Assembly: GCF_009914755.1 (NCBI RefSeq) | Contig: NC_060943.1 | Origin: the human T2T-CHM13v2.0 reference genome, Homo sapiens | Length of the DNA: 64,000 nucleotides | Reading direction: 5' to 3' (one strand) | Shown here: one piece after another, positions 22,475 through 41,959 of the stretch | Layout: each line of letters starts with the position of its first letter | Position numbering within the stretch: position 1 is the first letter of the stretch | Program-made: the position numbers and the translations under genes | Notes under the pieces: model-generated | What the model was told of the DNA's origin: nothing | Seen by the model: the letters and a program-made list of their open reading frames with translations, nothing else | Databases searched by the model: none

Positions 22475-23119
22475 ATAATTCCGTTTATTTCCTCACATAC
22501 CAGCCAAGCTTCTCAGTCAGGCAGACACAATAGATGGAATGGCAAGGGAAGTGAAGAGTGGAGGCTGCATCCCTTCAGCCGCCAGCTGATGTTCTGCTTA
22601 TTTCGCATACCGGAACTCCCAGGCGTCCTCAAACCACAATCACAGTTGTTGGTTCCAGAAACATCTTCTTTGGAAAAACATGTGACATCAGTTTCCTCAG
22701 AGTCTTCCGGACAATCCAGTCACACAGAACTGACAAAACCTTGTCAGGTGAGAAGATAAGGATCTTCTTCAATACAGAATATGTCAACATCTCCTTCTGA
22801 ATAGTTCCGTTTATTTGCTCACATACCAGCCAAGCTTCTCAGTCAGCAGGCACAATAGACTGAATAGGAAGGGAAGTGAAGAGTGAAGTCTGGATCCGTT
22901 TAGCCTCCAGCTGATGTTCTGCTTATTTCCTGTACTGGAACTCTCAGAAGTCCTCAAACCACAATCACAGTTGTTGGTTCCAGAAACATCTTCTTTGGAA
23001 AAACATGTGACATCAGTTTCCTCAGAGTCTCCCGGACAATCCAGTCACGCAGAACTGACAAAACCTTGTCCAGTAAGAAGGTAAGAATCTTCTTCAATAG
23101 AGAATACGTCAACGTCTCC
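22475..23119. repeat. Tandem duplication, 2 x ~320 bp
   Basis: 22475-22794 and 22801-23119 are near-identical, e.g. aaaccacaatcacagttgttggttccagaaacatc. Confidence 0.95.
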
Positions 23120-23274
23120 GTGAACGAAGAGATCTGCTGGTTCCAAGGACTTGTCGTGGATTTCTGTCCTAGATACTTTCTTCCGTAATTCAAGATAAAG
23201 AAAATTACAATCTCTGCTGTCCATTCCATCGCTTTTCCCTTCAGAATCATAATCAGAGAATCCTTGCAGAACGT
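22954..23274 (-). CDS. Candidate 106-aa small helical protein, family copy A (ACG start; first ATG at 23250)
   Basis: Open frame TFCKDSLIMILK...LLKKILTFLLDKVLSVLRD...EPTTVIVV*; collinear with three paralogs; promoter upstream and AATAAA at 22810-22815 downstream. Confidence 0.5.
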   Translation of the reverse strand, partial: TFCKDSLIMILKGKAMEWTAEIVIFFILNYGRKYLGQKSTTSPWNQQISSFTETLTYSLLKKILTFLLDKVLSVLRDWIVRETLRKLMSHVFPKKMFLEPTTVIVV

Positions 23275-23309
23275 CGTGAGTGTGCTCTCAGCTGCAATCA
23301 CCAGAAGGA

Positions 23310-23410
23310 CTCTTCACACTCGGTGAGTCCTCCTCATTTTATAGAAGCCAAAGCAGTGACGTATGCTCACCCCTCCCGCCCCCAGGAGAGAGGTTGCTGG
23401 CCAATGAGCT
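23310..23410 (-). promoter_or_regulatory. Pol II promoter: NF-Y CCAAT, GC box, CRE-like site, TATA
   Basis: ggccaatgag 23399-23408, cccgcccc 23375-23382, tgacgta 23357-23363, TATAAAA on - strand 23343-23337, in canonical order and spacing. Confidence 0.7.
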
Positions 23411-24074
23411 TGAGCTTCGTCATCCTTCCAAGCCCCACCCAGTTCCTTTGCTTCCCTTTCACCAACTTTGACTGAAATGAATAGGTTACAACCTTTAGCT
23501 TTCTGCCCCTTGGAAAACGGAAGCATTTAGACATCCGTATTAATATTTGGATCTAGAGTGTTCGTGTTTTAGCACTTCCTTTTTTGAAAGGAGAAGCAGA
23601 CGTGTTGTGTTTTTAGGAACACTTCCAAGAAGTTTCTCCTCCTCTATGATGAAACCAACACAAGAAAGCCAAAAGGGCGTTTAACCCCTTGAAGCACTGA
23701 GAGTTTCCCTGCTGATATTCTTAGACTGTTCTTTTTCTAAAACGAGAAAGAGGTAAGTTCTCTTTTTTTTTTTACACTGCCCAAAACTCTCTCTGCTCAG
23801 TGCTGGGCACTGGAAAACAATGGCCCTCTCTCTGGAAACCACTATCTGCCATCTCAAGGGCCCACTACAGGTCTGCCCAGCATTTTCATCCCTTCCTCAA
23901 GTCTGGTGCCCAGGACCCTCCTCTGCTCTGACAGCCAGGCAGCAGCACTCAAACTCCCCTCCCCTCTTAGCCTTCATACCTTCAGCTGCACTTCTGCCTC
24001 TGCAGTGTCAGGATGACCTCCCCTTCCTCCTGTCCTTCCTCATTCTTAAGACTTCCTACCCCTTCTGGATTAAT

Positions 24075-38739: not shown

Positions 38740-39365
38740 GTACCCAAAAGAGTTCCAGAATAAGATAAAAATGGTTTACATACAATCTCGCTATCTGGGA
38801 ATATAAAGTGCAGTTACTAAAAGCAGGGAATCTCTTTCCTGAAACTATTTCTAACTCTGTGAGGAGCTGCTAGATTCTACAGTGCCTGACAGACAGCTCT
38901 CAAGGGCCGTTTGGCTTGTGAATGGCATTTCCAAGGCAAACACCTTGTTTGAAAGCTGCTGCTCTGGTTAAAGAAGGGTCATGAAAGTCTTTTTTTTTTC
39001 CAGTTATTTGGGTGAAGTATGTTTTTGCGAGCAAATTTACCTTTCCCTCTGCGTTCTCCACATTTTGGGTTGTGATTTTATGACAATATAGTTTGTATAT
39101 TCAACTTATACATATTTATAGTGTTCAGTAAGAGCCTTTTAAAATAAAACAATTGAACACATTGGTTATTTTCACAAGACTCTAACCAAAATAGTATATT
39201 TTTAGGTAAAAACCCAGGAAAATTAACTCAAAAGTAGCCTATATGGCCGATGAATTCTTGCTGCATTTTATGCAAATTATCAGGCCAAGTGTAATAAGCC
39301 TAAAATTGATTTTGCACACAAATGGGTCTTACTGTAATTTCTCTTTAATAGGAAAAATAGGGGGC
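38740..39365 (+). mobile_element. ERV1 internal fragment, preceded by an Alu 3' fragment at ~38668-38739
   Basis: Resembles the reverse complement of ERV internal sequence at ~45180-45700. Confidence 0.55.
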
Positions 39366-41174
39366 TACAGACCAACCAGGATCTTCATGAGGACCAGTGA
39401 GCACAGGAGTAGGAAAGGGGTCACTAGCATCACTGAGATGCAGGTGGTGGCCATTCCTCATAGAAAACGAGATTTTTGGGGAACCTCCCATAGTGCTGAG
39501 CTCCATAGTGCCCACGGGGATGACAGAATCTGAGAATGGCTGGGACCAGGACTTTTGTCATCAAAAGCCAGCTGGAGGGTATAGGCAGTAAAATTGGAAT
39601 GCAGCAAAGGGAGGCTGACCTGCAAAGCACTAGGAGGGATCTCATAAAACCTGTTACCCTTAGAGGCAAGACAGGTGGAAAAAGAGTAAGTATGTCACTT
39701 AGTAGACATAATCAAGAGGAGCAGAAAGCCAAGGTCAGCTGTCCGCCATAGAATGTCATGATCCCTTGCTCAGTGAAGACCTGAGACAGTCCTCACACCA
39801 CTATATGTTTTTCTTTTTATAACCTTTATTAAAATACAGTTTATTTTTTCATTTACTTGGCACATTTGTATAATTGTGAAATTGTTTTCTTAGTAGTTTT
39901 AGTTACATATACTCAGTATAATGTTAGCTTTTAGGAACCCCTCTTTAGTAAAAATAAAACAAAAACGTAAGCAATTTTAATTGGTAGGAGTTGCAGAGCC
40001 CACAGCAAAGGACAGAGCTGTGGAAAATGTCTGACTCTTCCCAGCACGGAGTCGGGCCGTGGCTCCTTTCACATGTCCCCAGACCTCAGCTAGAATTGAA
40101 TGCTCTAAAACAGACAGGCCAGATGATTATTTAAAATGTTTTGGAAACAGTTTTTGACCTGCAAATATTTAGTAATGGCAATATTTCACATGTCTCATGT
40201 GGACAAAATGTCTACATTGTGAAGATATTTTTCTTTTACTTTACTAATAATTTTTAAAACTGACTTTATTGTTTTAAGTTTTGTAAAGTCACATGAACTA
40301 AAAGGCAATTGAGTTAACGTTTCAATTTTTCTGATAAAGACTTGATTGAAGTGTTTATTTTTAAGCCAATGAATGAGAGATTTATCATATATTTTGAAGT
40401 GAAACGCTATATACACATGACTCATCTAAATATACAGACTGAGGTCAATTTTATAGATTTAGAACTTTTTTTATTTGTTGGGCTTTTAATATTTTTTAAA
40501 AGCTTTACATCCTTTATTTTTGATAATTTGTGATTTCCCTGGTGCAATTATTTGGAGCCCACAGCAGTTGGGATCTGTGTATGCAGCAGAGGGTGCCCCT
40601 CCAAGCCTCTGGCTCTCTAAGGCCTCCTTCCATTTCAAGGGTAATTAAAATAAGGCTGATTGTTAGGGATTCTGGTGTGATGAACCCCAGCCCTCTCCCA
40701 CTTCTGGGGGCTAAGTGTTTACATGCCATCGCCCTTTGTTCCCCTACTGGGCCTCACATCACCTTCTTCCTCTTCTGGACTCAAATCTCTCTCTGCTTCC
40801 CCTTCCTAAGGACACTTGGGATTTCACGAGGGTCTAGCTAGATAAGCCGGGAGAACCTCCCACTGTTAAGATAATTAACTTCCTCACATTCACAAAAGCT
40901 CCTTTGCCACAGAAAGTCACTCTCACAGGCTACAGGTCATAGTTCGCAGTTACAGGAACTTGAAAATATTCTGCCTTCAAGTCCACCAGCTTTTGTAAAA
41001 AGCATCTGTTTCCTGTCCTGTGTAGTTGAGCACACTAAAGTCTTGTTCCCTTAGTCATTCCTCCTTCTGCTGCCCCTGTGGGGAGGGTCTTGCTGCCTGT
41101 ACCCACCTCTGACATTTGCACTCTTAGACAACATAGCCGCTAATTTGTTGGAAAGGCGTTAAATTAAAAAAAAA

Positions 41175-41315
41175 AAAGTGCTATTTACCGCCTCCCTCTT
41201 TGACAGAAGACTGTCTGTCAAAGTAACCCCGCCCCAAGTGACTTTTTAAGGGGTGGCTCACCAGGAGGGAGTCAGAGCAGAACTTGGACTGAGTCCTGCA
41301 GGACACAGGTATTAG
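41175..41315 (+). promoter_or_regulatory. Promoter and exon 1 of copy D
   Basis: ccccgcccc GC box, gactttttaagggg, ggctcacc, donor CAG|GTATTA at 41309. Confidence 0.55.
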
Positions 41316-41662
41316 CTTTTCTCTTTTATTTGCTTTATGTTTCATTTACTTCTTTGGATCGAATAGCTCCAATTGTATTGCTGTTATTTGGTTTTTCATT
41401 TTGTTGTTGGGTTTTTTGATGTGGTGTTTTTTTGTTTTGTTTTGTTTCTTTTTGTCTTTTTAGAAAGAGGGTTTCCCTCTATTGCCCTGGCTGGAGTACA
41501 GTGGTGGAATCACTGTTCACTACAGCCTCCAACTTATTCCTGGGCTCAAGCAATCCTTCTGTCTCCATCTCCTGAGCAGCTGGGACTCTAGGCATTTGCC
41601 ACCGTGCCCAATTTTTTTTTAATTCCTTTTTAAAAATATTTTAATCCTTTCCGGAAAAAAAT

Positions 41663-41959
41663 ATGTTTTCCATGGACTTGCTTATTTCCTTTATACAGTC
41701 CATTGTCGTTGAATTCTTATTTGAATTTGTGATACACCCTCTCATAGGGAACATAACAAATTTCCTCCCACAGCAATTAATGACGAGTGCGATGAGAAGC
41801 ATAATGACAATGATTAACTTGATAATTAAAAATCTAATCAACCAACTGTTGATGATTGTACTAAACAAAATAATTTCATTTTTACACAACCAGTTGTATG
41901 TGAACTATGTTGAAAACAGGATGCATGACTGGCGGCCAGAACAAAGAAGTTTGGTTTAA
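41663..41959 (+). CDS. Candidate intact 98-aa small helical protein, family copy D
   Basis: ATG-to-stop ORF MFSMDLLISFIQ...NFLPQQLMTS...LINQLLMIVLNKIISFLHN...RPEQRSLV*; start and stop fall at positions homologous to copy A. Confidence 0.5.
   Translation: MFSMDLLISFIQSIVVEFLFEFVIHPLIGNITNFLPQQLMTSAMRSIMTMINLIIKNLINQLLMIVLNKIISFLHNQLYVNYVENRMHDWRPEQRSLV

What the first reader, a model, noticed from the sequence alone, without database searches (positions are those of the whole stretch)
22954..41959. Hidden four-member family of ~100-aa amphipathic-helical ORFs
Seen: four ORFs align collinearly from start to stop. N-termini: A TFCKDSL, B MFSLDVL, C VFSIDSL, D MFSMDLL. Middle: RKYLGQKSTTS, RNFLPKQLVMS, TKFPPEQLITT, TNFLPQQLMTS. 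Core: LLKKILTFLLDKVLSVLRD, LIQKMLLFVLNKIALFLYD, RIKHMLMSILKENSFLCN, LINQLLMIVLNKIISFLHN. C-termini: EPTTVIVV* (A), RPEQRSLV* (D), QPEQVNLV* (C, out of frame). Copy A is far more diverged in DNA than B-D, yet keeps the hydrophobic periodicity, the near-gapless length and the stop position. Promoter blocks are homologous (ctcattggccag in A-C; TATA-like plus ctcacc in all) and each copy has a downstream AATAAA. Inference: a real, fast-evolving small-protein gene family undergoing birth and death, probably annotated only as lncRNA or not at all. I do not recognise the protein.
Basis: partly seen in the sequence, partly recalled or inferred. Interest (0 to 1): 0.9.

Follow-up and report, generated by a model that had tools for sequence, protein, structure and literature searches.

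The report
Hidden fast-evolving human microprotein gene cluster
Seven related gene copies on human chromosome 19, filed as non-coding RNA or not annotated, match 25 unnamed non-human proteins of about 100 amino acids, so they are likely a fast-evolving protein family, predicted to coat cell membranes and possibly serve immune defence; translation in humans is untested.

Summary
The family is real and larger than reported. In the window, D (41663-41959) is an intact 98-codon gene, A is open, and B and C are broken. Three more copies lie upstream in the PCAT19 locus: E (intact, 99 aa), F (open, 123 aa) and G (truncated). A profile search returned 25 non-human-like proteins at about 26% median identity that keep the start, the amphipathic helical pattern and, in 16 of 25, a hydrophobic C-terminal tetrapeptide at the same stop. 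No Pfam, PDB, fold or literature match was found. The E/F coding region diverged twice as fast as its flanks (0-fold sites 45 of 190, 4-fold sites 2 of 32), the mark of positive selection. The PBMC transcript lncCEACAM21 likely covers D; LINC01480 starts at B's promoter; prostate-cancer SNPs rs11672691 and rs887391 map between F's TATA-like box and its ATG. Against present-day human function: no family ORF appears in one Ribo-seq catalogue, three copies lack the ancestral ATG, and lncCEACAM21 is mostly nuclear. Best reading: an unannotated, probably mammalian, birth-and-death family of membrane-surface helical microproteins, likely in host defence. Family about 0.9; mechanism about 0.45.

The parts
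41663..41959 (+). Copy D: intact 98-aa ORF, ATG with A at -3; lacks about 8 codons (the aromatic-basic patch) in frame; ends RSLV
41228..41308 (+). D promoter (GC box, AAGTGAC, TATA-like) and non-coding exon 1, ending at the donor used by the RefSeq CEACAM21 upstream exon 41274-41308
   Evidence: hub annotation
41309..41662 (+). D 5'-UTR intron with a strong acceptor at 41463 (first ATG after it is 41663) and an Alu-like fragment shared with C; splicing inferred
41960..42864 (+). D 3' region: lncCEACAM21 qPCR primer at 42075-42097, D-specific Alu-like insert about 42238-42556, AATAAA 42859
22954..23274 (-). Copy A: frame open for 106 codons from ACG at the homologous start; ATG at 23250 gives 98 aa; ends VIVV; no intron-sized gap between promoter and ORF
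23337..23408 (-). A promoter: ATTGG, GC box, ACGTCAC, TATAAAA
22463..22794 (-). A': 325-nt tandem duplicate (90%) of A's 3' half, 53-codon remnant, beyond A's first AATAAA (22815)
27228..27665 (+). B promoter, exon 1 and its tandem duplicate (LINC01480 exons 1 and 2), intron and acceptor
   Evidence: hub annotation
27726..28036 (+). Copy B: broken ORF (stop after 51 codons, frameshift, homologous stop lost); skipped by the RefSeq LINC01480 model
28110..32274 (+). Retroviral remnant (two LTR-like repeats, 79% alike; gag p30 match) inserted just 3' of B; supplies LINC01480's last exon
34586..35054 (+). C promoter, exon 1, intron and Alu-like fragment
35055..35359 (+). Copy C: broken ORF (GTG start, TAG after 73 codons, tail out of frame); AATAAA at 35939. 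Copies E, F and G lie upstream of the window and are listed under Noticed in passing

Best explanation
The locus holds seven related gene copies, of which D, E, A and F have open frames, and they likely belong to an unannotated mammalian family of ~100-aa proteins, predicted to fold as two long amphipathic helices that would lie on the cytosolic face of a membrane and likely act in host defence. Shown: paralogy, shared promoter, open homologues from non-human sources, helical periodicity, conserved hydrophobic C-terminus, accelerated amino-acid change. Inferred: (1) sources are mammals; (2) D, E or A is still translated in human blood, plasma or endothelial cells (about 0.55); (3) the apolar stripe inserts into one leaflet, the basic C-terminal half binds acidic lipid, and the free V-I-V-V-type tail docks into a partner groove such as a PDZ domain or export coat; (4) the variable polar face is the surface chased by pathogens, which drives duplication, divergence and loss.
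For: Family: 24 hits in 1.84 billion proteins and 12 in the word search give 25 proteins with no match above about 55% in the 264-kb region; 5 of the 25 searched genome-wide have no near-identical human match and 4 of 5 hit this locus best. Median pairwise identity 26%, yet 17 of 25 stop at the homologous column and 16 of those 17 end V-x-x-[VILA]. All 9 with a listed contig sit on 697-2,445-nt contigs, transcript-sized. P0011 is 45% identical to A over 80 residues and has Met at A's ACG. Human monophyly is rejected (p 0.003). Neutral survival of such an ORF is 0.001-0.004 at 0.3 substitutions per site and 0 of 4000 at 0.5 (my assumed indel rate), while A, D and E lie 0.4-0.5 from the root. 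Selection: E/F ORF 69 of 305 vs flanks 394 of 3513, p 7e-8; C/D 69 of 219 vs 453 of 2084, p 0.002; E/F 0-fold 45 of 190 vs 4-fold 2 of 32, p 0.03; amino-acid identity 0.53 vs 0.78 neutral, 0 of 5000 simulations. Shape: AlphaFold helices 4-37 and 43-89, pLDDT 79; family hydrophobic period 90-92 degrees, 1 and 0 of 2000 shuffles; C-terminal half net basic in 29 of 30. Expression: lncCEACAM21 spans 1,186 nt, its primer maps to D's 3' UTR, and it is expressed in all sorted PBMC types (PMC10605335); LINC01480 is high in myeloma (PMC11058662); the SNP sites in F's leader carry H3K4me3/H3K27ac (PMC8395720).
Against: No family ORF or peptide word is in the Ribo-seq ORF tables of PMC10032668, which list 4 other PCAT19 ORFs, nor in PMC11536906's supplements. 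lncCEACAM21 is mostly nuclear in Jurkat cells, and its exon structure was not seen. A, C and F lack the ancestral ATG; B, C and G are broken; D has lost the basic patch; F has lost its tail motif. Catalogued PCAT19 ORFs begin or splice 3' of the E and F ORFs. dN/dS by codon counts is not significantly above 1 (E/F 1.62, CI 0.86-3.43; D/C 0.97), and the E/F 5' leader is also raised (23 of 134), so gene conversion of flanks may contribute. pTM is only 0.46, so helix packing is unresolved; per-sequence amphipathicity z exceeds 2 in only 14 of 30, and 10 of 30 have a 19-residue window above KD 1.6, so a transmembrane helix is not excluded. No conserved ISRE, GAS or NF-kB site across promoters. The immune link rests on expression and fast evolution only. 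Homologue sources are unnamed.
Confidence: 0.45

Rival explanations
1. The family is real in other mammals, but all human copies are now relics: their promoters and 3' ends survive as the lncRNAs and enhancers PCAT19, LINC01480 and lncCEACAM21, and the open frames of D, E, A and F have not yet decayed.
For: No Ribo-seq entry; 3 of 7 copies broken and 3 of 7 without the ancestral ATG; nuclear lncCEACAM21; an ORF survives 0.07 substitutions per site neutrally 16-22% of the time; RefSeq PCAT19 starts after E's stop.
Against: Four frames are still open; E/F amino-acid divergence far above neutral shows selection on protein after a duplication whose flanks differ by only 11%; D would survive its split from C neutrally only about 3-20% of the time; Ribo-seq catalogues depend on annotated transcripts (my knowledge), which may skip these ORFs.
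Confidence: 0.25
2. The proteins are made but work differently: as soluble helical adaptors or inhibitors that wrap a protein partner, or as reproductive (placental or testis) proteins whose fast evolution reflects sexual or maternal-fetal conflict.
For: Long helices with a 4-residue apolar repeat also fit helix-bundle binding; the cluster abuts the CEACAM genes (hub annotation), whose PSG relatives are placental (recalled); no shared interferon motif.
Against: Reported expression of the overlapping transcripts is in blood cells, myeloma and endothelium; high overall hydrophobicity (GRAVY up to 0.83) with a basic C-half suits a lipid surface.
Confidence: 0.27
3. Neutral segmental duplicates or a transposon fragment with chance open frames.
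For: D/C dN/dS 0.97; AT-rich DNA yields hydrophobic translations (my knowledge).
Against: 25 non-human-like open homologues with shared ends; DNA and protein searches gave credible hits only at this locus; survival simulations; deep-pair dN/dS 0.42-0.82.
Confidence: 0.03

Closest known systems
lncRNA annotations of the locus: PCAT19, LINC01480, lncCEACAM21 (ENST00000601116.5)
   Same: Same DNA: LINC01480 uses B's promoter and exon 1; lncCEACAM21's primer lies in D's 3' UTR; PCAT19 exons and published oligos lie in the 3' flanks of E and F.
   Different: Papers seen treat them as unrelated non-coding RNAs; PMC9681662 states PCAT19 lacks conservation between species. None of the passages seen mentions these ORFs or their paralogy.
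Exchangeable apolipoproteins, perilipin 11-mer repeats, G0S2/HILPDA (recalled: amphipathic lipid-surface proteins)
   Same: Size, long amphipathic helices and basic residues beside an apolar stripe: a model for how it may work.
   Different: No Pfam or PDB sequence match; period 90-92 degrees rather than about 98 (recalled); no evident signal peptide by eye; conserved hydrophobic C-terminal tetrapeptide.
IFITM, ISG12/IFI27 and APOL small membrane-active immune proteins (recalled)
   Same: Small, clustered, duplicated and lost per lineage, fast-evolving, membrane-directed.
   Different: No Pfam match to these families; no conserved cysteine; no shared ISRE; not Gly/Ala-rich.
Mouse Aw112010-type immune microproteins hidden in lncRNAs (recalled; search gave nothing usable)
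   Same: Short ORF in a transcript filed as non-coding, immune-cell expression.
   Different: This is a multi-copy family with homologues in many sources; sequence relation to Aw112010 was not tested.

Membership tests
Birth-and-death protein-coding multigene family | Tandem paralogues of different ages with intact and broken copies | tested here: met
   7 loci plus A'; 4 open, 3 broken; DNA identity 46-79%
Birth-and-death protein-coding multigene family | Open homologues outside the species, with lineages older than the species split | tested here: met
   25 proteins; AU p 0.003 against human monophyly; sources unnamed
Birth-and-death protein-coding multigene family | Syntenic orthologues in named mammalian genomes | not testable with these tools
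Birth-and-death protein-coding multigene family | Selection on the protein sequence | tested here: met
   E/F 0-fold 45 of 190 vs 4-fold 2 of 32 and flanks 11%; open frames beyond neutral survival
Human protein-coding gene | Transcript covering an ATG-initiated ORF | tested here: inconclusive
   lncCEACAM21 span and primer bracket D, but the exon structure was not seen and the start was anchored on a RefSeq exon
Human protein-coding gene | Ribosome or peptide evidence | tested here: inconclusive
   absent from the supplements of 2 papers searched; a third was unreadable; raw data not available
Transposable-element-derived repeat | Dispersed copies across the genome | tested here: not met
   3 DNA and 8 protein searches gave no credible hit off this locus; best off-locus E 0.04; no repeat library was available
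IFITM / ISG12 / APOL / apolipoprotein / perilipin / G0S2 | Match to the family's Pfam model | tested here: not met
   0 of 28 family proteins reach a gathering score; best E 0.005 to unrelated models
IFITM / ISG12 / APOL / apolipoprotein / perilipin / G0S2 | Shared fold | tested here: inconclusive
   best Z 7.2 (rmsd 2.9-8.4, 87-90 aligned), none at 8 or more among 48,161 chains; model pTM 0.46
Amphipathic membrane-surface protein (works like) | Long helices with one conserved apolar face | tested here: met
Amphipathic membrane-surface protein (works like) | Binds membranes without spanning them | not testable with these tools
   longest uncharged run 8-27 residues in 10 proteins; 10 of 30 exceed KD 1.6
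PDZ-ligand tail (class definitions recalled) | Free C-terminal hydrophobic-x-[VIL] or S/T-x-[VIL] | tested here: inconclusive
   13 of 20 proteins ending at the family stop fit (12 class II, D class I); 6 end in Ala, 1 does not fit; binding untested
Interferon-stimulated gene | Conserved ISRE or GAS near the promoter | tested here: not met
   ISRE-like in 2 of 7 and GAS in 1 of 7 promoters at unrelated places; induction untested

The most novel reading that the evidence does not exclude
PCAT19, LINC01480 and lncCEACAM21 are the visible remains of an undescribed innate-immune family of membrane-coating microproteins still active in humans, and the aggressive-prostate-cancer haplotype rs11672691/rs887391, which sits in copy F's promoter-leader, acts partly by shifting output between the F and E proteins.
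Probability: 0.2. Interest if true: 0.97.

Novelty: categorically new. Interest (0 to 1): 0.87.

Why it matters
If even one copy is translated, the human reference lacks a whole protein family, with no Pfam or structural relative found and signs of an evolutionary arms race. It would reinterpret three studied lncRNAs as members or remnants of one gene family, give PCAT19 homologues in other species where it was thought to have none, and place a well-known aggressive-prostate-cancer SNP 37 nt upstream of a protein start codon. Every step is directly testable with public Ribo-seq, CAGE and mammalian genomes. 'Categorically new' refers to the protein family; tandem birth-and-death clusters and lncRNA-hidden microproteins are known patterns, and uncharacterised gene predictions may exist in databases I could not query (the ESM Atlas holds D letter for letter).

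Tried and rejected
Single-sequence search with D found only one human-derived 59-aa record. ESM Atlas: one feature hit at 0.75 for D, none for A; structure rows generic. PDB sequence search best E 0.51; Foldseek PDB 0 matches; viral structures none at E 0.001; VIA-align best Z 7.2, generic coiled coils and bundles: absence shows no new fold. Viral origin: 0 confirmed loci for 3 queries in IMG/VR, which is weak for animal viruses. Rfam 20000-45000: 0 matches. Homodimer prediction for D gave no verdict and is not used either way. My idea that the two cancer SNPs hit F's start codons was rejected: they map to -29034 and -28997, in the leader. The C-terminal end of P0001 could not be traced in the 264 kb. 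Rows dropped before counting homologues: P0001-P0005, P0022 and P0026, which are human copies (98-100% identical). The profile is partly circular for A-D, so independence rests. The profile scan covers only 100 kb on each side; further copies elsewhere were sought only with single sequences. Literature: 10 searches showed no listing that describes this family; I saw listings only, most subscription journals are not held, and bioRxiv and unreadable supplements (PMC13223753) may list these ORFs.
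Full report
OBSERVATION. B, C and D share 64-72% DNA identity, A 46-49%. A's membership holds up: z 6.8-7.8 against D with 0 of 2000 shuffles; a B/C/D-only protein profile finds A at E 2.6e-5 among 8,776 segments (next unrelated E 1.9), and a DNA profile without A finds it at E 1.4e-9. Only D is ATG-to-stop. 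A is open from an ACG with an ATG 8 codons later. C starts with GTG and stops at codon 74. B stops at codon 52 and is frameshifted, with a retroviral remnant inserted just behind it.

MORE COPIES. A profile scan of the window plus 100 kb on each side found three more minus-strand copies in the PCAT19 locus (places under 1 lie upstream of the window): E (-7536 to -7835), intact, 99 aa, ending 228 nt before the RefSeq PCAT19 start; F (-29071 to -29442), open, 123 aa, with GTG at the ancestral start and a 1-nt deletion that removed the family stop; G (about -26826 to -26932), truncated. The B/C/D-only profile finds F and E at E 1.2e-9 and 1.2e-5. All 7 promoters carry an ACGT[CG]AC or AAGTGAC word shortly before a TATA-like box, 6 of 7 an ATTGG and 6 of 7 a GC-box-like word in the 400 nt scanned. 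In A, E, F and G the ORF follows the promoter directly; B, C and D have a 5'-UTR intron. The DNA tree, rooted at the midpoint, is (A,((E,F),(B,(C,D)))) with all 3 inner branches starred. Genome-wide single-sequence searches found no credible copy elsewhere.

HOMOLOGUES. A profile of the human pieces hit 24 of 1.84 billion proteins; a second search with 19 sequences hit 12. After dropping 7 human-derived records (P0001-5, P0022, P0026), 25 remain, none above about 55% to the region. Five were searched against the whole human genome: none has a near-identical match, and four hit this locus best. Median pairwise identity is 26%, yet the core alignment has few gaps, L63 of D is almost invariant, and 17 of 25 stop at the same column, 16 of them with V-x-x-[VILA]. 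The 9 with a listed contig lie on 697-2,445-nt contigs, which suggests transcripts (inference). P0011 is an A-type protein with Met at A's ACG (45% over 80 aa); A groups with five non-human rows at 97/87 support, and human monophyly is rejected (p 0.003).

EVOLUTION. In my simulation an ORF of this size stays open neutrally 0.1-0.4% of the time at 0.3 substitutions per site; A, D and E lie 0.4-0.5 from the root, so the frames were kept by selection over most of that time. E and F differ at 69 of 305 ORF sites against 394 of 3513 flank sites (p 7e-8); C and D at 69 of 219 against 453 of 2084 (p 0.002). In E/F the excess is at 0-fold sites (45 of 190) and not at 4-fold sites (2 of 32; p 0.03), holds without the worst-aligned 14 codons, and gives 53% amino-acid identity where neutrality predicts 78% (0 of 5000); in D/C the 0-fold and 4-fold sites do not differ (41 of 136, 5 of 13). 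Codon-count dN/dS is 1.62 (CI 0.86-3.43) for E/F, 0.97 for D/C and 0.42-0.82 for deep pairs. Gene conversion in the flanks is a partial alternative.

PROTEIN. AlphaFold gives helices 4-37 and 43-89 (pLDDT 79, pTM 0.46); their packing is not resolved. Column hydrophobicity is periodic at 90-92 degrees in both helices (1 and 0 of 2000 shuffles). The C-terminal half is basic in 29 of 30, and 10 of 30 have a window hydrophobic enough for a transmembrane helix, D the most. No Pfam family or PDB sequence matches; fold searches were uninformative.

EXPRESSION AND LITERATURE. PMC10605335 (passages, one section, supplement rows): lncCEACAM21 is a 1,186-nt-span plus-strand transcript, expressed in all sorted PBMC types, lower in fatal COVID-19 and mostly nuclear in Jurkat cells; its primer maps to 42075-42097 in D's 3' UTR. 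If it starts at the RefSeq exon at 41274 it ends near 42459 and brackets D (assumed anchor). PMC11058662 and PMC5886078 (passages): LINC01480 is raised in myeloma and has a validated p53 site. PMC9086407 (passages) added nothing on coding. PMC9681662 (passages): PCAT19 is endothelial-enriched and called non-conserved; its guides and probe map to the 3' flanks of E and F. PMC11688190 (passages, Introduction) treats PCAT19 as non-coding. PMC8395720 (passages, supplement rows) gives positions for rs11672691 and rs887391 and active histone marks; PMC7261909 (passages) places them in the PCAT19-short promoter with NKX3.1 and YY1 effects; the primary papers were not read. Anchoring on an exon in PMC10032668's table, the SNPs fall at -29034 (G) and -28997 (T), matching the listed risk alleles; the other alleles (A, recalled, and C) would create TAAGTG and GCCAT, the recalled NKX3.1 and YY1 cores. 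Both lie between F's TATA-like box and its ATG. Against translation: PMC10032668's tables (supplement rows only) list 4 PCAT19 ORFs, none from the family, and none of the family peptide words searched; PMC11536906's supplements have no hit. Ten searches showed no listing describing the family; supplements I could not see may do so.

MECHANISM. Shown: a seven-copy cluster, a family beyond humans, amphipathic helices, a conserved hydrophobic tail, diversifying change. Inferred: the protein is made on free ribosomes, lays its apolar stripe into the cytosolic leaflet of an internal membrane or lipid droplet, is held by its basic half, and uses the free tail to engage a trafficking or scaffold partner, while the polar face meets pathogen factors and is driven to change. 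I put the family at about 0.9, a translated human copy at about 0.55, and the membrane-and-defence reading at 0.45. Rivals: human relics only (0.25), soluble adaptor or reproductive role (0.27), neutral DNA (0.03).

VERDICT. It is not a member of any family I could test; it may work like amphipathic membrane-surface immune proteins. Interest 0.87.

Noticed in passing
L025:2165-2464 minus strand (window places -7835 to -7536): Copy E, part of the finding but outside the window: intact 99-aa ORF, first ATG after the family promoter, ends VVQI; AATAAA at -8060, where RefSeq PCAT19 begins.
   Followed up: yes
L023:558-929 minus strand (window places -29442 to -29071): Copy F inside PCAT19: open 123-aa ORF identical to P0022; GTG at the ancestral start (-29047); family stop lost, 34-aa tail; promoter ATTGG -28930, TATA-like -28967.
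   Followed up: yes
L023:3068-3288 minus strand (window places -26932 to -26712): Copy G: family promoter and frameshifted 5' third of the ORF, then unrelated sequence.
   Followed up: yes
window places -29034 and -28997 (L023:966 and 1003, F leader): Prostate-cancer SNPs rs11672691 and rs887391 lie 37 and 74 nt upstream of F's ATG; the rs887391 C allele would also create an out-of-frame ATG near the presumed start site.
   Followed up: partly
window places -8060 to -8134 and -29564 to -29638: RefSeq PCAT19 begins at E's AATAAA and a donor follows about 70 nt later; the same block follows F. PCAT19 exons may be built from the 3' ends of E and F, by a second promoter or by recapped cleavage products.
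   Followed up: partly
window 28110-32274: Retroviral remnant with two LTR-like repeats (79%) and a 245-codon gag p30 frame (30774-31511); donates LINC01480's last exon and poly(A) signal.
   Followed up: partly
window 200-17357 and places about -2600 to -6600, -32400 to -49600: Long arrays of a 74-76-nt repeat (about 70% alike) interleaved with the cluster; may promote duplication. A 40-nt GC-rich array at 6721-7297 interrupts one.
   Followed up: no
window 41274-41308: The upstream CEACAM21 exon is D's non-coding exon 1, so some CEACAM21 isoforms are likely driven by the family promoter.
   Followed up: partly
P0018: A 197-aa non-human homologue holds two family units in tandem.
   Followed up: partly
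F and G promoters (window places -28956, -26738): The conserved word reads TGACGTGG or TGACGTGA on the other strand, the recalled XBP1/ATF6 UPRE; could fit plasma-cell expression.
   Followed up: no
P0001: A 703-nt ENA record encodes D's first 54-55 residues and then an untraced tail.
   Followed up: partly
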